Source of the DNA: Paraspadella gotoi
Lineage: Eukaryota; Animalia; Chaetognatha
Assembly (NCBI GenBank): GCA_051294375.1
Contig: CM119263.1
Span: 26,679,130-26,743,129, forward strand
Direction: 5' to 3'
Length of the DNA stretch: 64,000 bases
Position 1 is the stretch's first letter. Every line of letters starts with the position of its first letter. Position numbers and translations under genes: made by a program. The notes below the pieces were generated by a model. The model was not told the DNA's origin and made no database searches. It worked only from the letters and a program-made list of their open reading frames with translations. This document shows positions 10,509-60,235 of the stretch, piece after piece.

Positions 10509-11525
10509 TAGTCCGAAAATTTAGACTGGCTTAACAACGACGAAGCTGCCACTAAATATTGCGCCATGAATTTAAAAGAAAGATAAAAAGACATCGACCT
10601 TCCAATCTCGCTTCTCGATCTCACCGTTTCACTCGGCTCAAGATCTGTTTTCGGCGTTTCTCACAAAGCAATCACTACCGAATATCAAGGCGCAACGTGA
10701 ACCCATAAAAGTAGTGTTTTTGGTCTTTAAATCCGAATGGTTCGGACACTATCGACCCGAAGAGAAGGAACGCCAACTCGTAAAACGCATCTTGGGCCGA
10801 AATGGAAAAAAAAGACGAGTTCACTCTCACCTTTCTCTAGTGTTTTTCATCATGGGTTGCGTTCTTGCTTTCTTCTGTTTTTTTTTTCTCTCGAATTTTT
10901 TTTCTCTTTTTTGAGTTATGTCGTTGGCCTAACTTTTTCAATCAATCAATCAATCCATTGGTAGCCCAAAAACCATAACAAACTAACCCAGTCACCCGTT
11001 TCAGACTCAATTCTCCTTCAATTCACCTTCAGCCGTTACAAGTTTATTGGATCCGGGGATTGGGTTTAAATCCTTCTCCTCTCCCGTATGCAACCCGTTT
11101 TGCGGCGATAAAGCGAATTAATGTGATAACCCTGGATGTAGTAAAGCGAGGCCAAGTCCGGGGGGGAGAAGCGAGCGGTCGGCTTTATGGGATCGACCTT
11201 GTCGGGGAGAAGAGGTGGAATAACAGGTGGAAAAAGGTGGTAGAAGTGAAAAATGAGTGACTTACAGGACTAATTAAATTTCAGCTGTGATATTCTTATT
11301 GCTGTTTTGAGAAGCATCGACTTAATTGTAAGGGGGTCATTCACCAAGAAACACAAACTAAATTATTGGTTCAATTCTTATACGCCTCTGAAAGATGGAC
11401 TCATTGGTTCCGGGTCCAGAATTGGCCACTTCCTCTTTCGCCTCCTTCTCTGCCTCCATCTCGATTTCTCCATTAAAACGAGAAACGAGGGCAAATGAAA
11501 GAAGATCATCAAAGGAAAGGGGGTA

Positions 11526-11556
<31 letters not shown>
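10509..11556 (+). repeat. Left arm of ~1.04-kb near-perfect inverted repeat
   Basis: Reverse complement of ~11810-12847. An identical 63-aa ORF appears on opposite strands (11307..11498 + and 11867..12058 -). Differences are mostly single-base indels. Confidence 0.95.
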
Positions 11557-11809: not shown

Positions 11810-11837
<28 letters not shown>

Positions 11838-12847
11838 TGTTTACCCCTTTCTTTGATGATCTTCTTTCATTTGCCCTCGTTTCTCGTTTTAATGGAGAAA
11901 TCGAGATGGAGGCAGAGAAGGAGGCGAAAGAGGAAGTGGCCAATTCTGGACCCGGAACCAATGAGTCCATCTTTCAGAGGCGTATAAGAATTGAACCAAT
12001 AATTTAGTTTGTGTTTCTTGGTGAATGACCCCCTTACAATTAAGTCGATGCTTCTCAAACAGCAATAAGAATATCACAGCTGAAATTTAATTAGTCCTGT
12101 AAGTCACTCATTTTTCACTTCTACCACCTTTTTCCACCTGTTATTCCACCTCTCTCCCCGACAAGGTCGATCCCATAAAGCCGACCGTCGCTTCTCCCCC
12201 CCGGACTTGGCCTCGCTTTACTACATCCAGGGTTATCACATTAATTCGCTTTATCGCCGCAAAACGGTGTGCATACGGGAGAGGAGAAGGATTTAAACCC
12301 AATCCCCGGATCCAATAAACTTGTAACGGCTGAAGGTGAATTGAAGGAGAATTGAGTCTGAAACGGGTGACTGGGTTAGTTTGTTATGGTTTTTGGGCTA
12401 CCAATGGATTGATTGATTGATTGAAAAAGTTAGGCCAACGACATAACTCAAAAAGAGAAAAAAAATTCGAGAGAAAAAAAAAACAGAAGAAAGCAAGAAC
12501 GCAACCCATGATGAAAACACTAGAGAAAGGTGAGAGTGAACTCGTCTTTTTTTTCCATTTCGGCCCAAGATGCGTTTTACGATTGGCGTTCTTTCTCTTC
12601 GGGTCGATAGTGTCCGAACCATTCGGATTTAAAGACCAAAAACACTACTTTTATGGGTTCACGTTGCGCCTTGATATTCGGTAGTGATTGCTTTGTGAGA
12701 AACGCCGAAAACAGATCTTGAGCCGAGTGAAACGGTGAGATCGAGAAGCGAGATTGGAAGGTCGATGTCTTTTTATCTTCTTTTAAATTCATGGCGCAAT
12801 ATTTAGTGGCAGCTTCGTCGTTGTTAAGCCAGTAATTTTCGGGACTA
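11810..12847 (-). repeat. Right arm of ~1.04-kb inverted repeat
   Basis: For example, 12781-12833 is the reverse complement of 10525-10577. The spacer between arms contains a 25-N gap. Confidence 0.95.
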
Positions 12848-32048: not shown

Positions 32049-32543
32049 GATTTGAGCTGTTGACTAACAGCGACCGCCTCATGTCACTGGCTTATTAAAA
32101 ACCAGTCCTGTAAACGTTTTATCCTGAACCGGGATAATCAAGTTTCGAACCCAGAACCCAAAGTTGAGGGAAGAAGATTTAGCTGAGGAGTGACAGCGGT
32201 GAGACGGCTTCTAATATATTACAACACTATTACTGAAAAAATGAATAAATGAAATATTTAAAGAAAAAAAATATATCTGTTATGAGGTCCCATTGACGTA
32301 TAGACACAATCAACGATAAACGAGAAAAACCTCACGCATCCAGATATAACCGTTTCACCAGCNNNNNNNNNNNNNNNNNNNNNNNNNGCAGGCAGGAAAG
32401 AATCGGCCAACTCCGGCTAACATATCATCTCAATTTTACAGCAGGATCTGGCCTGGATTTCTCTCTCTCTCTCTCGTCTCTCTTTCATTCTCTCATCTCA
32501 TCTCTCGTTGCTCTCGTCTCTCTCGTCTCTCTCTTTCTCTCTT

Positions 32544-32593
<50 letters not shown>

Positions 32594-33774
32594 GCATCTT
32601 CAATCTTTTTCGGTCAAAAGAGTATTACAAAAAAATCTCATCATAAATGACCAAGCGGTGGGGTGGGAGCTTTTCCTAGGAAGAATCACAACCGCGATCG
32701 AAAGAAGCGATTCTAGCAGTGGGCTGGTGCATAGAAGGACAGAGAGAGAGCGAGAGAGAGAGAAGTGAAGCAGAGAGGAGAGAGAACGAGAGAGAGAGAG
32801 GAGAGAGAGAGCAGGAGAGCAGAGATAGAAGAAGAGACGTGAACGACATTATTGTGCAAAGGCTGAAGATGAGAAAAGCGAATTTTTCAATCCTGGCCGA
32901 AGTTGAGGCTGTGTTTACGAGGACAGTTCGTCACCAGACCAGTGCGGCCGGCCCCCAGTGGCAGAGAAGAGAGTGAGAGCAGAAAGAGAAAACAAAAGGC
33001 CGGGAGTGCAAGCAGACAAGCAGATAGAAGACAAAGTCCAAGGCGCGAATGGAGGAGAAATAGGAATAATATAGAAGTGGAAAAACCGATAAAAAAGAGT
33101 ATACAAAAACTAAATTGCCAATCAACATGATAAAGGACCGCGACACCGCAGCCCAGATGCCCATTAATTTCGATCTAGATTTTAAACATTTAACATTTAA
33201 ATCATATCCCCTACGCTCTTTCCACAATTCTTTTCTCCTCCTTTTGACGGCTTTTTTTATAGGCTTAAAACCTTACGCCCTTTCCACTTACGGACCTCTC
33301 CTCATTCTCTTTCATCTTTACATCTACTCTCCGTTAGTCGCCCTCGTTTCGACGCCGACCACAACGTCTAAAACAACCCAAAACAAAAAACCAAGACACA
33401 GGACGACGTGTAACATGAGACGAAAACTATTTTGCGCTCGAAATTTAAAATATTAAAAGAAAGAGCAAAAAGAAAAAAATTCTTTTTTTTAGAAAAGAAT
33501 GAAAAAAAAGGATATACGAAAGGAGAAGAATAAGATGAGAAAGTAAAGCCGTGACTGTAAAGGAAGGTGCGTGGAGGCTCAAGAAGTTTCTCTCTTCATT
33601 AAATTTAAGTCTTTTCCTTTTTTTTTTTTTTTTTTTCTCTTCCTTTTTTTGTTGTTTTATTTACTGTCTCTGATTCTCTTACAGTCTTTTGTCTGTTAAT
33701 AGTATTTGGTCCTTCATTATATTTACACGTTCACCAGAATTGTTGTCACTCGCAACTCTATATATTAAGAAAAA

Positions 33775-34829
33775 ACTAGCCACCACGTTTATCTCATATA
33801 TTTAATACTTTACGTCGCTCTCTTGGTTTTCATCTTTTGTTCTTCTCAACCTCTTTTTCTCCTGGATTTTACTCTAACCGATATATCGATTACTTACATC
33901 CCTTATTCTCCTTCGAGAGAGAGTTATAGAATAGGTGGGAAACATTAAATCTCCTAGGCAAAATTGTGCATGGACGCGTGGTGCTTGTTTCTCGGTCGGA
34001 GAGTGTGCCTGTGTGTCCGCGAAGTCGTGTGAAGTCTCGAGGTCTTGTGTCGGCGTTCTCCTGGGATGCTCTCCTTCCTTCCTTTCTTCCTTCGGTTCTT
34101 CTTTCCCCTAGCTTTTTTTAAAAAATGTTGTCAGGGTGAAAAGTAGTAGGTGAGAATGCGACGAAGGGGGAACTCGCGGGTGCCTCGATATTATTTTTAG
34201 TATCATTTTTTAATATTTTCCCTTCTACATTTCTTTCTTTTTCCCTCTTTCTTTCCCTTTTTTTTCCCCGTCTCCTCATGGCATTTTCGATATTTTTTTT
34301 TTTCCATTATCCCCTCTCTTTATTTTAAAAAAAACCCCACGTTTATCTTCATATTTATTTTATCCTTTTGTTTTCATTTTTTTCTCTCAACCTTTTTTTT
34401 CTTTTACCTCAACCGAAATCTTTCTTCATCCCTATTTCCCTTCGGGATTACGATAGGTGGAAACAAAATTCTAGGCAAAATTGTCTGGACGCGTGGCTGT
34501 TTCTCGGTCGGGGGTCCTGTGGTCCCGAAGTCTTGAAGTCTCGAGGTCTTGGGTTCGGCTCCTTCCTTCCTTCCTTCCTTCCTTCCTTTCTTCCTTCCTT
34601 CGTTCCTTCCTTCGTTCCTTCCTTTCTAGCTTTTTTAAAAAATGTTGTCAGGTGAAAAGTAGAGGTGAGAATCGACGAGAGGGGACGACCTCGATATTTT
34701 TAGTTACATTTTTATTTTCTCTACATTTCTTTCTTTTCTTTCTTTCTTTCTCTCATGCATTTTCCTATTTTTTCCATTATCCTCTCTTTTTTCCCTCTCT
34801 TTTCCCCACTTCCCCACTTCCCCTCTTCC
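33775..34829 (+). repeat. ~550-bp direct tandem duplication with indel-type divergence
   Basis: CCACGTTTATCT.., CTAGGCAAAATTGT.., GAAGTCTCGAGGTCTTG.. and AAAAATGTTGTCAGG each occur twice in the same order. Confidence 0.85.
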
Positions 34830-34854
34830 NNNNNNNNNNNNNNNNNNNNNNNNN

Positions 34855-35989
34855 ACGCCACAACCGAAGACGAAAAAAGATGACGAAACCGCGCCGTGAA
34901 GAGAGAAAACTTCAAAGCCACGGAGCGTTTGAAAAAATACGGAAAAGAGAGAGGAAAGGAGAAGAGCGAGATAAGCAGAGTATCACTGTGTAAATATTCT
35001 GAAGTCTCCAAAAAAGAAAAAAAAAAAAGAAAAAGAGAACAGAAGAGAACGCACAGAGGAAAGAAAAAAGAAGAAAAAAGAGAGAGAAGAAGGAAAGAGA
35101 GAAGAAGACGAAAAAAAAAAAAAGTAAGAAATACAACATAAATAAAAAAAATACTAAAAAAATAAAAATACAAATATAATGAAAATTATGAAAAAAAGCT
35201 AGAAAAAAAAATCACAAAAAAAAAAATTGGAAACTATGGGTACTCAAAAAACCACAGCGACGCGCACCTCAAGTCGTCACCAAAATGCAAACAAAAAAAA
35301 AAAAAAAAAACATATAATTCAAAAAAACACAACAAAAAAAAAAAAAAAAGAAGATAACCTGCAGCCTAAACGCTATATATCCTGAACCACGGCAAGAAAA
35401 TAAAAAAGAAATAAATCCAAATTATCGCACCCAAGAACCCAAAAGTTAATTAGGACATAGTGCGGGAAAAAAGCAAAGGGAAAAAAAAAAAAAAAAAATA
35501 TAAATAAAGAAAAAAAAACATACAGAAAAAAAAAAAAAAAAAAAGGTAGACAACCGAAAAGTGACAGCAAAATGGTGAGACGCTATGTCTCAATACATAT
35601 ATAACTAACTATTCAAAAACTCATTGAACATGAAAAAATTATAGAAACATCAAAAAAATAAACATGAAAAAAAAAATATTTATAAAAATATAAAAATTCG
35701 TAAAACTATAATGCTGTTATGATCCGGGGTCGCAATTTGACGAGCCGCGATTATACGACACAATCAACCGATAAGTGAGCAGGAGGGCGCAAAAAAAAGC
35801 CTTCAGCGCATCCAGATATAAACCGTTGCGTACAAACCACGAGAAGAATGCATAAGAGATAATTCCCGACCTATTTCTGTTCTAAACATATCATCGTTCG
35901 TTCCACGGTGCTTTACGCCAGCCAGGCATCTGCCGCCGATTCTCTCTCTCATCTCTCTTCTCTCTCTCTCTCTCTCTTTCTCTCCTCTC

Positions 35990-36043
<54 letters not shown>

Positions 36044-38125
36044 GTCTTCCTTCGAATCTCTCTCGGTCATTCTCTTGCGCTCTCGCCATGCTTTCAATCT
36101 TTTTGTCACTGGTCAAAACAGTCGATACAAAAAAATCTCAATCTAAAATGCACAGAAGCGACAGGGCGCTGGGCGGCCGGAGCTTGTTCCACTAGAAAAT
36201 CCACGCCGATTCGAAAGAAGTCCAAGGAGGCGCTTCATCCAAGCTACGCGGGCTGGAGGAGCAGGAGAGGATAGAGACGAAAGAGAAGAGGCAGCGGAGG
36301 GAGAAGAGAGAGAGAAGAGGATCGAAGAGGAAGAGAGAGACGAGAGAGAGAAGAGAGGAAGAGATAGAGAGAGGAGAAACGAGATAGAGAAGAAAGGAGC
36401 CAATCATATTGTGCCAAGGGAGGCTGACGAGAGGAGCAAAATAGATGCGCGAAGTTTATTCATCCATGCTGAGTGTGTACGCCTTGTTTACGAACGCTCG
36501 TCTAGCCAGAGGTGAGACGCTGCCGTCCCCAGTGGCGCAGCAGAGAGAGAGAGAAAGAAGAAAAAAAAGAAAACAAGGGAGATGCAAAGACAAGAGAAGC
36601 GATGAAGAAGTCAGAGGCGAGCGAGCAAATATGAAAAGTAAGAAAAGAGTGAAAAACCGCCAAAAGAGTATATCAAAACTATAATGTCACCAAATTCATT
36701 TATAGCGCCCTCACCTTACAACCCCCCCCCCCCCCCCAACGCAAGATCCCATTAAATTTACAGATAGATTTAAACATTTAACATTTAAATCATCCCCTTT
36801 TCCTCCCACCAATTTCTTTTCACTCTCCCTTTTGACCCTTTAGTATTAGCCATTAAAACTTCCTACACCCCTCTACCCCTCTTTCCCACTTACCCTTTCC
36901 TCCTCTCTCTTTCTTTTCACTTTCTAAACTCTCTCCGTCCTTGCGCCCCTCTTTCCGAACGCCGCTTTACGCCACTCAACATAAAACACAAAACAAAAAC
37001 TGCAAGACGTGACATGCCAGACGGCAAATACTATTTTTCCTGCTGTTCGCCAAATTTAAATAAAAGAAGAACAAAAAGCAAAAATTTCTTTTTTTTAGAA
37101 AAGAATTTGAAAAAAGCCCGCAATAAAAAGGCAGAAAGAATAAAGAGAGAAAGTAAAAGCATTCCTCGAGCTGGCAGCCTGACCTAATAGCGAATAGGGT
37201 GGAGGCTTCAAAGGAAGTTGCTTCCTCCTCATTGGATGCATTAAGTCTTTCCTTTTTTTCCTCTTCCTTTTTTTACTTTACATTGTCCCTCTTCCTGATT
37301 CTCTTCAGTCTTTTTATGGCTCTGCTTAAACTATTGTCTCTTTCTCTTTTTCATTTTCACTATCTTTTGTCACCTCGCCCGTCCCGTTTAGTATACTGTA
37401 AAAAAAAAAACCCCAGCGCATTAGCAAAAGGATGCTCACCTTTGTATTTCTTTGCACTATTATTTATCCTTTGTTCTTCATTTTTTTCACTCAACCTTTA
37501 TTTTTCTTTCTACCCTCAACCGATAATCTTCTTCATCGCCTGATTTCCTGCTTCGGTAGGGGATTACGAAAGAATAACGTGATGGCCCAAAATGAACAAA
37601 ATTCCTAGGCAAAATTGCTTTTTCTTTATACGCTTCGCTATGGGTTTCTCACTCGGTCTGGTGTCACCATAACGTAAACGGTCCCGGAGCCCAAAGATCT
37701 TCTAGAAAGTACTCGAGGTCTTTTTGCATTAACGGCTTCCTTCCCTTCCTTAATTAAAAATTCTCACACCTTCCCTGTTGCGACTTTATCTCCTCGTTCC
37801 TTCCTTCTCTGTTCCTTTCCACTTTCTACGCCCACTCTAATTAATTAAAAAATTTCTTGATACAAGTTTGTGCGAGAAGTAGCATGTCTGAGATCGATCG
37901 TTACCTAGACGCGCGGCACGACCTACAGCATAGACAGTACAAATTCGGAATTTCTATTATACCATTTTTATATTTTCACGAGTCTACATTGTCATTATCT
38001 GTTTCAATTCTTTCCTTTACTCAAGTGCCAGATCCGTGAAAGATTTTTCTCCTCAACATGTATCCCGTCTCTTTTTCACCTCTCTTTTCTCAAGCCGCCA
38101 CTTCCCCACTTCCCTTTCCCACTTC
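34855..38125 (+). other. Error-rich second copy of ~31750-34829 (probable uncorrected long-read gap fill)
   Basis: Colinear anchors: CGCATCCAGATATAA 32335 vs 35807; TACAAAAAAATCTCA 32626 vs 36126; TTTAAACATTTAACATTTAAATCAT 33181 vs 36769; CTAGGCAAAATTG 33954/34471 vs 37605. The copy is insertion-rich and begins at a 25-N gap. Confidence 0.85.
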
Positions 38126-42700: not shown

Positions 42701-43344
42701 TTGGGGTTTAATTGAAGTGGGGGGGCAATTAGAAATAAATTAATAAGAAATAAATTATATTTGAGGGAATCGAGCAAAGAGGACAAAAGATCTGAGTGTT
42801 CATTTGACCCTACTTTCTCGTTAGATGAAGAGAAAGCAAGGCGCCAAGCAGAAGGGAGTAAGAGAGAGAGACAAAGAAAGAGATAGAGAGAGAGAGCAAA
42901 GTGCTTTTTTGGAGATAAATCCTTTAGAATCTCGGGTTTTCTCGTCGTCGCCGTTGTCGTCGTCGTCGTCGTCGTCGTCGTATATAGTCCTTCGATTTCG
43001 TTTCTGTTTTTTCTTCTTTTTTTTCTTCTTTCGTCTCAAATTTCGTCCAGGAGTCAAATCTCGGCGCGCGTCGGGCAGACCTGGCTGCCAGTCGGTCAGA
43101 CTGCGCAGAGAAAGTCGGTCAGACTTTGGGGCGAGTATCTATATTAACATCGGATCGAGAAAAAAAGGAAATTTAAAAAAAATCAAATTTTAAATGATTT
43201 TAAAAACAGAAATTTTTCCCTTTGGAAAATTAAATTTCTAAAGTTCTAAAGACGTAAAAAGTGAGGTTTATTAAATTTATTAATCAAATTACTGAAGAGA
43301 CAGTAATTATTGATAAGTGTTAATGACAGAACCGTTCAATATAA

Positions 43345-43418
43345 GCAGTTCCTGAGCTTCGGATCAGGCTGTAACACCATGTTACAGGCGGGTTAAGCGC
43401 CCCGTCCCTCTTAACTGC
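43345..43418 (-). ncRNA. Twister self-cleaving ribozyme, circularly permuted type-P5
   Basis: The minus strand reads GCAGUU AA GAGG GA CGGG GCGCU U|AA CCC GC CUGUAACA UGG UGUUACAG CCUGA UCCG AA GC UCAGG AACUGC. Helices: P5 GCAGUU/AACUGC, P3 CUGUAACA/UGUUACAG, P4 CCUGA/UCAGG with loop UCCG-AA-GC. Pseudoknot T1 is UCCG/CGGG (covaried relative to the usual UCCY/RGGG) and T2 is GC/GC. The catalytic GA after P2' and the N|AA cleavage motif are present; the predicted cut lies between 43395 and 43394. P2 is imperfect (CCC vs GAGG) and P1 is vestigial. Confidence 0.85.
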
Positions 43419-43421
43419 CAG

Positions 43422-43493
43422 ACGACCACCGGGCTAGAACCCCGGACCTTTGGGTTGGGAGGCGAATGACTTGCCTCCGGCACCAATGGCCGC
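43422..43493 (-). pseudogene. tRNA-derived (Gly-CCC-like) Pol III head, not a functional tRNA
   Basis: 72 nt long. Acceptor-like stem GCGGCCA/UGGUCGU, A-box-like TGGTGCCGGAGG, anticodon-loop-like CU-CCC-AA, and T-arm CCGGG-GUUCUAG-CCCGG with B-box-like GGTTCTAGCCC. The anticodon stem does not pair; the D/anticodon region can instead form GGAGGC/GCCUCC. Confidence 0.7.
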
Positions 43494-45147
43494 TGATGAA
43501 CGGTTGGTGGATTTTAGTCCACCATATTACCATCTACAGTACAGTTTCTTATATTTAGCCACTTTATAGAAAAATATTAAAATAACCCGTTGTATTTCCT
43601 TCGCTTCCTTGTTTTCGATATCACCGCTCCCCTTAACCAGCTTCCGTTCAACCGCGTGGCAAGAAACAACAACAACAACAACAAATCAGCCGGCAGTCAA
43701 GTCCAATAAGGAAAGAGAGAGTGAGGCTCTTTCATTCCGAATTTTCACAAATGCCTCTCACGCTTAATTTTTCAAAAGAAGTGATCTTTTTCATTTTCAT
43801 TTTGTGATTTATTTACATAATTTATAAATCATGAGTTATAAAAAACTGTTTTAACTTTTCACTCTCCAAGTTAAGATGAATTTCACCGATGGGAAGCTGT
43901 GAACTTTTATCGCATGAGTGAAAGCCGCCGCAGTTTCACGGTGACCATTTGCTTCAACCTCCTTACTTCTCCTCGCCCTCCTTTCCTCTGCATCATCATC
44001 ATCATCCTCTTCCTCATCCTATTCCTCTTCTTCATCCTCTTCCTCTTCTTCATCCTCTTCCTAACCTCTTCCTCATCCTCTTCTTCTTCCTCCTCTTCCT
44101 CTTTCTCCCTTTTCGCTGTTTTTTAACGAGGGACTTCCTCGAGGCGAGAGACGCAGCTGACGGTAAGTCGAGGCCGACGCGAGGCCGCAGGGTAACGGGT
44201 GGGGTAAGGGAGAGGGGAAAGAGTGAGGTGGGGTAAGGAGTGTGAAGGAAAAAGGGGAAGTAGAAGGAGAAGATTGGTGGCGGGAAAAGGAAAAAGAAAT
44301 AAGATAATGGAGCAAGCTGCGTGCATAGTCCATACAAGAACAAAATGACAAAAAAAAACACAAATATTGTACTGTAAGAATTATATTTCTAAACAGTCGC
44401 AATATGTAAAAAATTTACAGAACACGGTCCTTGGAAGACGTTCGGTGTCATTTGCATCAATAATAAAGAATTGTATTAATTTTTTTACGAATTGATAAAA
44501 TTTTGTTGGAGACCAAGAAAACGTAGTAGTTGGAATAAAATGGAGAATTTTAAGTATCGGCCGCGCCGTTGCCGACAACGAAATAACAACAACAACGACA
44601 ATAAAAATGAGTTAAGAAAAGTGGAAAGTCGGGAGCGAGGAAATAGGTTACGAAGCATCGGAGATAAGATATTCGCCGATAAGGAAAGAGAGAGGGGATT
44701 AGGGAATAGGGTAGGGGAAATTAAAGGGAATGGGTTAGTCTGGGAAAGGTAGAGGGGATTCATTGTGAAAGGTTGGGGAAAGATGCGGACAGCGCTGGCT
44801 GAATTTGACTTACCAGGAAAACTGCGCGGCTTGCTTGTGCTGCAATCGGTGATTCCGTTATTTTAAAGAATGGGGAAAAAAAAACGATGGCGGCTGAAGC
44901 TGGTTTGGGGACTTGAACTGGTGGTTGCGTGACTGCGTTCGACTGAAATTGTGGAAGGTAAGGACGACAGGGTTTTGGGTGAGTCATATGGTAAACAATG
45001 CTTTTAATTCAAATAGTTTTATAGTTCTGTTGAAGGAAAGGAGTAGACTGTGGAGTCGAATTGTACGTTGGGTGTGGGCGTGCGAGAAATGATGAAAGAT
45101 ATCCTTGGATTGAATGGTAAAAAAAAGATTAAAAGTGCAAGTAGCTT

Positions 45148-59872: not shown

Positions 59873-60235
59873 CGAACCTGATTATTCAGAGGGACAAACT
59901 TTGTCCGAACCTGATTATTCAGAGGGACAAACTTTGTCCGAACCTTATTATTCAGAGGAACACACTTTTTCCGAACCTTATTATTCAGAGGGATAAACTT
60001 TGTCCGAACCTTATTATTCAGAGGAACAGACTTTTTTCCGAACCTGAATATTCAAAGGGACAAACTTTGTCCGAACCTGAATATTCAAAGGGACAAACTT
60101 TGTTCGAACCTGATTATTCAGAGGGACAAACTTTGTCCAACCCGAATATTCAAAGGGACAAACCTTGTTCGAACTTGATTATTCAAAGGGACAAACTTTG
60201 TCCGAACTTGATTATTCAGAGAAACAAACTTTGTC
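59873..60235. repeat. 33-bp minisatellite, ~11 copies
   Basis: Unit CCGAACCTGATTATTCAGAGGGACAAACTTTGT, head-to-tail with point variants. Confidence 0.95.

What the first reader, a model, noticed from the sequence alone, without database searches (positions are those of the whole stretch)
43330..43505. tRNA-headed, stem-closed 176-nt RNA carrying a permuted twister ribozyme: candidate new SINE/retrozyme class
Seen: on the minus strand a 72-nt tRNA-like domain with A/B boxes ends 3 nt before a type-P5 twister fold, and a 9-bp inverted repeat closes the whole unit. Established: twisters occur at the 5' ends of non-LTR retrotransposons (e.g. in Schistosoma). Pol III SINE-like repeats with hammerheads exist (Schistosoma Sm-alpha, animal retrozymes), and phage theta ribozymes are HDV-like motifs directly 3' of tRNAs. 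Inference: this is an analogous but different pairing, a Pol III transcript that cuts itself 27 nt downstream of the tRNA-like domain. Cleavage leaves 2',3'-cyclic phosphate and 5'-OH ends, which are RtcB-type ligase substrates, so this could be a small non-autonomous mobile or circular RNA. I do not know of a described tRNA-SINE with an internal P5 twister, but novelty is unverified.
Basis: partly seen in the sequence, partly recalled or inferred. Interest (0 to 1): 0.92.

Follow-up and report, generated by a model that had tools for sequence, protein, structure and literature searches.

The report
Twister ribozyme inside a tRNA-promoter LTR
The stretch is the core of a 234-base mobile repeat scattered in many copies through this genome, most likely the lone end-repeat (LTR) of a miniature retrotransposon, in which a tRNA-derived promoter sits beside a predicted self-cutting twister RNA that would let full elements make circular RNA, a pairing I did not find described.

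Summary
On the minus strand there is a 72-nt tRNA-like domain, a type-P5 twister layout with both pseudoknots paired, and a 9-bp inverted repeat. Public contigs show a dispersed high-copy repeat with sharp ends at 43293 and 43526 (234 bp). The window copy has a 4-bp target duplication (TTAC) and TA…CA ends, starts 33 nt before the tRNA part and has no SINE tail. One contig from a second organism continues straight after the CA end into 13 of 14 letters of a published tRNA-Trp primer-binding site. So this is most likely a solo LTR of a Helenus-type miniature LTR retrotransposon (Kojima 2024), not a SINE. No ribozyme is reported for Helenus. By eye, however, the two Trp-primed Synergus Helenus LTRs in that paper's supplement carry a complete hammerhead in the same position. 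Together they suggest Pol III-driven LTR retrozymes, a type so far described only in plants. Cleavage, transcription, circles, the polypurine tract and a full two-LTR copy are not shown. Rfam does not match, and P2, P1 and the P4 closing pair depart from the consensus.

The parts
43293..43526 (-). Whole 234-bp repeat unit, TA…CA on the tRNA-sense strand; read as a solo LTR
   Evidence: loose ends pile at 43293 (150/112/33 contigs in X1/X5/X9) and 43526 (188/134/37), flank agreement 0.41-0.46; summed depth about 1-2.5 million inside against 76-84 outside in X1
43289..43292 (+). Target-site duplication, left copy (TTAC)
   Evidence: chance of a 4-base match about 0.006 from flank composition
43527..43530 (+). 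Target-site duplication, right copy (TTAC)
43505..43524 (-). 7-bp hairpin at the 5' end of the unit (role unknown)
   Evidence: I16
43497..43505 (-). 5' arm of the 9-bp inverted repeat
   Evidence: I6
43422..43493 (-). tRNA-like domain, predicted Pol III internal promoter (A box 43485-43474, B box 43441-43431, both imperfect)
   Evidence: z -2.8, 1 of 200 shuffles as good. Common alleles at 43422 and 43425 turn both acceptor G·U pairs into G-C, and one at 43479 restores the A-box A. Not called by ARAGORN or Rfam
43345..43418 (-). Predicted type-P5 twister ribozyme; predicted cut between 43395 (U) and 43394 (A)
   Evidence: Pairings; layout against Table 1 of PMC8501958; descriptor controls; no Rfam hit
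43330..43338 (-). 3' arm of the 9-bp inverted repeat
   Evidence: I6
43293..43329 (-). 3' tail of the unit ending in CA (U5-like); in one organism-B contig it is followed directly by a tRNA-Trp-type primer-binding site
   Evidence: tables 7-8 (X10 record 10: 38 letters on the element, 4 differences) compared with Fig S2 of PMC10886601
43256..43260 (-). First run of 4 or more T downstream, in the flank; predicted Pol III stop for this solo copy (the unit itself has no T run longer than 2)

Best explanation
The window holds one copy of a 234-bp high-copy dispersed repeat with a 4-bp target duplication, most likely the solo LTR of a Helenus-type miniature LTR retrotransposon whose LTR carries a tRNA-derived Pol III promoter followed by a predicted twister ribozyme, so that full elements would work as retrozymes. 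Proposed cycle (all inferred): Pol III starts at the tRNA-like domain of the 5' LTR. It meets no T-run in the LTR and reads through the internal part into the 3' LTR. The twister cuts at U^A in both LTRs. [quoted passage not shown] The circle replaces the strand transfer that needs an R repeat, and Gypsy integrase inserts the cDNA with a 4-bp duplication. Solo LTRs such as this one arise by LTR-LTR recombination or directly from short cDNAs. Shown: repeat, ends, one duplication, one primer-binding-site junction, the fold. Inferred: everything about RNA and enzymes.
For: Sharp shared ends with hundreds of unrelated flanks in three runs of organism A. TTAC duplication and CA end. 5 of 6 flank consensus 4-mers have TA in the middle, and one head-to-tail joint has CTAG between the units. 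One X10 contig leaves the element exactly at the CA end and matches the tRNA-Trp site of Gypsy-32_NVi and Helenus-2_SyJa at 13 of 14 letters (chance about 2e-5 after allowing 15 site types, 5 offsets and 2 contigs). Animal Helenus have tRNA-like LTRs of 104-323 bp, 4-bp duplications, solo LTRs and Gypsy-type primer sites. The twister has both catalytic residues, both pseudoknots Watson-Crick paired (CGG/CCG where S. mansoni has GGG/CCC), P3, P4 and P5. Of the 11 alleles at or above about 10% of depth in X1, 10 leave the twister core paired or improve a stem. There is no Pol III terminator in the unit. Analogy: the Trp-primed Synergus Helenus-2 LTRs hold, by eye, a full type-III hammerhead 3' of their B box. 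Plant retrozymes give the mechanism, solo LTRs included. RtcB circularises animal retrozyme RNA in vitro.
Against: The primer-binding site rests on 1 of 2 contigs of organism B (151 letters, depth 5.4, 38 letters on the element). It was not seen in organism A, whose flank consensus shows no trace of it. No polypurine tract, internal part or two-LTR copy was seen, and both flanks are known at one locus only. One X9 flank consensus (AATT) and the other X10 flank do not fit the TA pattern. Rfam gives no twister hit. P2 has a 3-nt strand and needs a bulged A, P1 is at most 1-2 pairs, and the near-invariant G-C closing P4 is A-U. The predicted minimum-energy fold pairs the pseudoknot strands into a competing helix, with P2 probability 0.0 (pseudoknots are not modelled). 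A CpG allele at 43360 (10% of depth) breaks pseudoknot T1. Both promoter boxes are imperfect. The terminal inverted repeat of the LTR is weak. Expression is not shown.
Confidence: 0.6

Rival explanations
1. It is the LTR of a Helenus-type TRIM, or shares its 3' end with a Gypsy LTR, but the twister is inactive, a captured fossil from an RTE or Penelope-like element, or only trims transcripts. The element moves by the ordinary linear LTR route.
For: No Rfam hit; departures in P1, P2 and the P4 closing pair; competing helix. Most Helenus read in the supplement show no ribozyme core yet are mobile. Twisters are common at RTE 5' ends, a ready donor.
Against: The core is kept across the common subfamily alleles, with a compensated T1. 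P1, P2 and P4 imperfections were tolerated among about 1,950 natural twisters scored. A cut inside both LTRs would destroy the R repeat needed for linear replication unless circles form.
Confidence: 0.2
2. The 234-bp unit now spreads by itself, without an internal part. Head-to-tail dimers give 234-nt circles, the TGG that follows the CA-TA junction serves as primer site, and a Gypsy integrase inserts monomers.
For: Head-to-tail joints 43526-to-43293 in 6 contigs of X1 and 5 of X5; very many apparent monomers; no internal part visible in organism A. The junction would read CA-TA-TGG.
Against: The joints are few and at single-copy depth. No purine tract lies in the unit's 3' end. A normal Trp primer site exists in organism B. 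Contig data can hide an internal part, because even the window's own flank contigs do not overlap the element (table 8).
Confidence: 0.08
3. A tRNA-headed SINE or non-LTR retrozyme (like Schistosoma Sm-alpha) moved by a LINE or Penelope/Naiad element.
For: tRNA head plus ribozyme is known from Schistosoma repeats. An unchecked earlier AI note (e1-6818684) reports P5 twisters without P1 in Naiad terminal repeats.
Against: The fixed 5' end lies 33 nt upstream of the tRNA part, neither end is at the cut site, and there is no A-rich or tandem tail. Depth is roughly level along the unit, with no truncation slope. The duplication is 4 bp, whereas animal non-LTR retrozymes are tandem, lack primer sites and have longer duplications. 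The primer-site junction also argues against it.
Confidence: 0.07
4. A non-autonomous DNA element (Helentron/HINE type, from recalled anatomy: sub-terminal inverted repeats plus a terminal hairpin) that passively carries a tRNA-twister fragment.
For: 9-bp inverted repeat with a hairpin next to one end; AT-rich flanks.
Against: A 4-bp duplication (rolling-circle elements make none; recalled), the primer-site junction, and common alleles that improve RNA pairing.
Confidence: 0.05

Closest known systems
Helenus (TRIMp3; Kojima 2024, PMC10886601), above all Helenus-2_SyJa and Helenus-2_SyUm of Synergus wasps
   Same: tRNA-like A/B boxes inside a short LTR, 4-bp duplication, solo LTRs, tRNA-Trp primer site (13 of 14 letters). 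The Synergus LTRs start with similar letters (10 of 12 with one gap, by eye), have the tRNA part in the 5' half and, by eye, a ribozyme in the 3' half.
   Different: The ribozyme here is a twister; in Synergus it reads as a type-III hammerhead, and the paper's main text mentions neither. Most Helenus LTRs read have the tRNA part near the 3' end followed by a T-run. No listed family matched this element's motifs. The copy number here looks higher than the largest listed (5,575 LTRs).
Plant LTR retrozymes (Cervera et al. 2016, PMC4918200)
   Same: Non-coding LTR element with a self-cleaving ribozyme in the LTR, 4-bp duplication, primer site, solo LTRs, Gypsy helper.
   Different: They use hammerheads and tRNA-Met, and no tRNA-type internal promoter is described in the passages read. 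They are reported from plants only; animal retrozymes are described as non-LTR.
Twister ribozyme, type P5; S. mansoni Perere-3 twisters (PMC8501958)
   Same: UAA cut loop, GC pseudoknot, U-NNN-AA-GC loop, GA-NNN partner, and a P3 resembling the S. mansoni one.
   Different: P5-open permutation with almost no P1, bulged P2, T1 CCG/CGG, A-U closing P4. It lies inside an LTR rather than at a LINE 5' end, and the Rfam model does not hit.
Schistosoma Sm-alpha tRNA-plus-hammerhead repeats and animal non-LTR retrozymes (PMC6765202, PMC7229834)
   Same: Pol III-type promoter next to a ribozyme in a short repeat.
   Different: Those are tandem, lack LTR ends and primer sites, and use type-I hammerheads.

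Membership tests
Twister ribozyme, type P5 | N^AA cut loop with general-acid A, and general-base G followed by A | tested here: met
   UAA 43395-43393, GA 43406-43405; layout as
Twister ribozyme, type P5 | Two pseudoknots (3 Watson-Crick pairs; GC/GC) | tested here: met
   CGG/CCG and GC/GC all Watson-Crick
Twister ribozyme, type P5 | P4 stem with U-NNN-AA-GC loop; near-invariant G-C closing pair | tested here: inconclusive
   5-bp stem and loop present, but the closing pair is A-U
Twister ribozyme, type P5 | 4-bp P2 and a P1 stem | tested here: not met
   P2 has 2 pairs plus a third across a bulged A; P1 is a 6-nt linker with at most 1-2 pairs. P1 is dispensable and P2 flaws are tolerated
Twister ribozyme, type P5 | Ends lie in P5 | tested here: met
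   6-bp P5 closes the fold
Twister ribozyme, type P5 | Match to the Rfam model | tested here: not met
   No hit at gathering score or at E up to 10
Twister ribozyme, type P5 | Site-specific self-cleavage | not testable with these tools
   Needs an in vitro assay
Helenus / TRIMp3 | tRNA-like sequence with A and B boxes inside a short LTR | tested here: met
   boxes imperfect; 234 bp lies within the 104-323 bp of the animal families
Helenus / TRIMp3 | 4-bp target duplication (animal families) | tested here: met
   TTAC at the one locus with both flanks; flank consensus 5 of 6 with central TA
Helenus / TRIMp3 | Primer-binding site behind the 5' LTR | tested here: inconclusive
   13 of 14 letters to the Trp site, but in 1 of 2 organism-B contigs only and not seen in organism A
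Helenus / TRIMp3 | Polypurine tract and two LTRs around a short non-coding internal part | not testable with these tools
   No genome is held; the contig tables do not resolve it
LTR retrozyme | Self-cleaving ribozyme inside the LTR | tested here: inconclusive
   Fold predicted, activity untested
LTR retrozyme | Hammerhead ribozyme and tRNA-Met primer site | tested here: not met
   Twister layout and Trp-type site; works like one, is not a member as defined
LTR retrozyme | Circular RNA spanning the two cut sites | not testable with these tools
   No raw RNA reads available
tRNA-derived SINE | 5' end at the tRNA start | tested here: not met
   Shared end at 43526, 33 nt upstream of 43493
tRNA-derived SINE | A-rich or tandem-repeat 3' tail | tested here: not met
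   The unit ends in CTTCA
Helentron / HINE | No target duplication, insertion into T-rich site (recalled) | tested here: not met
   4-bp duplication at the window locus

The most novel reading that the evidence does not exclude
Animals, probably including wasps, have an unrecognised class of Pol III-driven LTR retrozymes. These are Gypsy-dependent, tRNA-Trp-primed miniature retrotransposons whose LTR holds a tRNA promoter and an exchangeable self-cleaving ribozyme: a twister here, a type-III hammerhead in Synergus Helenus-2. They replicate through circular RNA and, in this genome, left on the order of ten thousand active or once-active twisters.
Probability: 0.5. Interest if true: 0.85.

Novelty: new variant of a known kind. 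Interest (0 to 1): 0.74.

Why it matters
LTR retrozymes are described only in plants and only with hammerheads, animal retrozymes as non-LTR and promoterless, and Helenus as ribozyme-free. This element joins the three. It would be the first twister in an LTR element and would give a concrete biological job to a eukaryotic P5 twister. It would show that circle formation can replace the R-repeat strand transfer in a Pol III retroelement, and that the ribozyme class can be swapped within one layout. It also makes a cheap test available: the published Synergus consensus sequences and this 74-nt fold can be assayed directly. The twister escapes the Rfam model, so similar families are probably being missed.

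Tried and rejected
No whole genome is held, so copies could not be counted or aligned. There is no second copy in the 64-kb window. Rfam: 0 hits at gathering score; only chance hits at E up to 10. ARAGORN: 0. Twister-pattern scans gave 7 metagenome, 6 prokaryote-genome and 0 viral stretches; all 13 lacked the stems and any BLAST similarity to the element and are chance. No RNA holder was listed; X9 is only guessed to be RNA, and contigs cannot show RNA ends, so nothing is concluded on expression. A second laying of contigs from further runs gave no result, so covariation in other organisms and the internal part in organism A stay open. I laid 4 of the 11 listed runs. A Pfam scan of 120 of 802 stop-to-stop frames gave no hit above cut-off, so the host could not be placed. 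The wasp-like guess rests only on the Synergus resemblance and a window CpG ratio of 1.11; CpG-type alleles at 7 of 12 CpG sites in the element sit less well with it. The supplement of PMC11662667 could not be read, so I could not check whether this twister is among its candidates. The GCTTAACCCGCC match in Ajax LTRs has no twister loop nearby and was rejected. A literature search for the primer-site letters gave only irrelevant papers. Earlier scan notes: none by sequence, place or the first word search.

Full report
Observation. Pair-by-pair checks give a 9-bp perfect inverted repeat, a 72-nt tRNA-like domain (43493-43422), a 3-nt linker and a 74-nt twister layout (43418-43345) with the predicted cut at 43395/43394. 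The 176 nt fold better than all 200 shuffles (z -3.6). The 234-nt unit does too (z -3.3, 0 of 200), the tRNA part nearly so (1 of 200) and the twister part less (5 of 200). Neither ARAGORN nor Rfam recognises any part.

The twister. I compared it with the column layout of published S. mansoni twisters (Table 1 of PMC8501958). It has the U^AA loop, the GC that pairs with the GC of loop 4, loop 4 as U-CCG-AA-GC, and GA-CGG as partner; the usual CCC/GGG pseudoknot is replaced by CCG/CGG, a change on both sides. P3 (8 bp), P4 (5 bp) and P5 (6 bp) are perfect, and the ends lie in P5, which defines type P5 (PMC5408937 passages). A descriptor built from that table hit only this site in the window. 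In Markov controls it gave 2 hits in 30 windows, and 6 core hits but 0 with P5 in 300 windows; it was written after seeing the site. Three departures count against activity: P2 has a 3-nt strand and needs a bulged A, P1 is a 6-nt linker, and the pair closing P4 is A-U where G-C is near-invariant. The predicted lowest-energy fold also locks the pseudoknot strands in a competing helix (pseudoknots are not modelled). In favour, a test of about 1,950 natural type-P1 twisters found P1, P2 and most P4 flaws tolerated, and pseudoknot or catalytic changes not (PMC11662667 sections 31, 32, 35). Those sensitive parts are intact here. I put activity at about 0.7.

It is a dispersed repeat with other ends. 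Eleven runs from 5 studies hold the stretch or part of it; I laid four. In X1, 14,251 contigs were laid. Summed depth is 76-84 in the flanks and about 1-2.5 million between 43293 and 43526. The tool warns that this is not a copy number, so I say only 'order of ten thousand'. The firm count is of loose ends into unrelated flanks: 150, 112 and 33 contigs at 43293 and 188, 134 and 37 at 43526 in X1, X5 and X9, with flank agreement of 0.41-0.46. The unit is therefore 234 bp. It begins 33 nt before the tRNA part, ends in CA without a tail, and neither end is the cut site. The window copy is flanked by TTAC on both sides (chance about 0.006). Five of six flank consensus 4-mers have TA in the middle, X9's right one does not, and one of two X10 flanks does not. 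Head-to-tail joints are few (6 contigs in X1, 5 in X5), one with CTAG between. Table 3 lists 23 alleles inside the unit, 11 of them at or above about 10% of depth in X1. Three lie in the tail, two in the P3 loop or its last pair, one in the linker, two turn acceptor G·U pairs into G-C, one restores the A-box A, and one turns the end of P5 into G·U. One, a CpG change at 43360 (10%), breaks pseudoknot T1.

Why an LTR. Organism B (X10) gave two contigs. One, of 151 letters and depth 5.4, covers the last 38 letters of the unit with 4 differences, three of them the family's common alleles. It leaves exactly at the CA end and, read on the tRNA-sense strand, matches the tRNA-Trp primer-binding site of Gypsy-32_NVi and Helenus-2_SyJa at 13 of 14 letters (table 7 against Fig S2 of PMC10886601; chance about 2e-5). 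Kojima 2024 (main text parts 1-4 of 6; supplement parts 1 and 5-11 of 11) defines Helenus as miniature LTR elements with a tRNA-like sequence in the LTR, 4-bp duplications in animals, solo LTRs and Gypsy-type primer sites. Some have TA…CA ends. The element fits that description. The weak point is that the junction is one contig from another organism. Organism A's flank consensus shows no such site, though contigs can hide it: the window's own flank contigs stop at the element's edge. No polypurine tract or two-LTR copy was seen.

An unreported parallel. Kojima's main text has no 'twister', and mentions hammerheads only in one reference. The two Synergus families with the Trp site nevertheless carry, 3' of their B box, what reads by eye as a complete type-III hammerhead: GUC triplet, 7-bp helix I, CUGAUGA, 4-bp helix II, GAAAC, 6-bp helix III, and loops I and II complementary over 12 nt. 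A search of the whole supplement found the CUGAUGAG core 5 times, 2 in these LTRs and 3 in fungal entries without the rest in the context shown. Twister loop words appeared once, outside a twister layout. Line breaks can hide matches, and parts 2-4 (fungal) were not read. This reading was not computed.

Mechanism. Inferred, by analogy with plant LTR retrozymes (PMC4918200 passages and discussion) and RtcB ligation of animal retrozyme RNA (PMC7229834 passages). The unit has no T-run longer than 2, unlike most Helenus LTRs read, so Pol III would run on. In a full element, cuts in both LTRs release a unit whose ends are held by P5 and the 9-bp stem, ready for ligation. The circle is primed by tRNA-Trp and copied and inserted by Gypsy enzymes. 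The window's solo copy would end at the flank's T5 (43260-43256) and cut once, a dead end. A large excess of solo LTRs is known from plant retrozymes (nine full among hundreds of loci; PMC9695139 passages).

Novelty. Searches for twister with SINE and tRNA, twister with retrozyme, ribozyme with Helenus, and related combinations showed no twister in an LTR element and no animal LTR retrozyme in the listings and passages seen. Reviews state that plant retrozymes are LTR and animal ones non-LTR and without promoters (PMC7761336, PMC9695139, PMC6765202 passages). Repbase, Dfam, Roth et al. 2014 and the supplement of PMC11662667 could not be checked, so the repeat or its twister may already be deposited. 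The host is unidentified; 'animal' is inferred from the 4-bp duplication and the primer site.

Verdict. Real feature. New variant of known kinds: it works like an LTR retrozyme, is probably a member of Helenus/TRIMp3, and is not a SINE. Confidence is about 0.85 that it is an LTR, 0.7 that the twister cuts, and 0.6 for the whole cycle. Interest 0.74.

Noticed in passing
PMC10886601 supplement, Helenus-2_SyJa-LTR and Helenus-2_SyUm-LTR: By eye, a complete type-III hammerhead ribozyme with a 12-nt loop-loop pairing, 3' of the tRNA-like promoter; not mentioned in the paper's main text.
   Followed up: partly
window 10509-11556 and 11810-12847: A 1,050-bp inverted duplication at 98% identity around a gap and GA microsatellites; foldback element or assembly artefact.
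   Followed up: no
window 32460-34258 against 34316-37157: Degenerate duplicated blocks at 67-72% identity with many small indels, suggesting error-rich or doubly assembled sequence.
   Followed up: no
window 59873-60235: Tandem array of a roughly 33-bp unit, 85-92% alike.
   Followed up: no
window 43293/43526 joint: Head-to-tail dimers of the unit in 6 contigs of X1 and 5 of X5. A direct join would read CATATG, a palindrome followed by TGG like a primer site.
   Followed up: partly
window 43369-43423 (table 5c): An internally deleted copy, seen in X1 and X5, has a different 6-nt linker between pseudoknot T1 and the cut site whose end pair is A-U instead of G·U, hinting at a one-pair P1.
   Followed up: no
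whole window: No protein family in 120 frames scanned, microsatellite-rich, CpG observed/expected 1.11, 2,202 N.
   Followed up: partly
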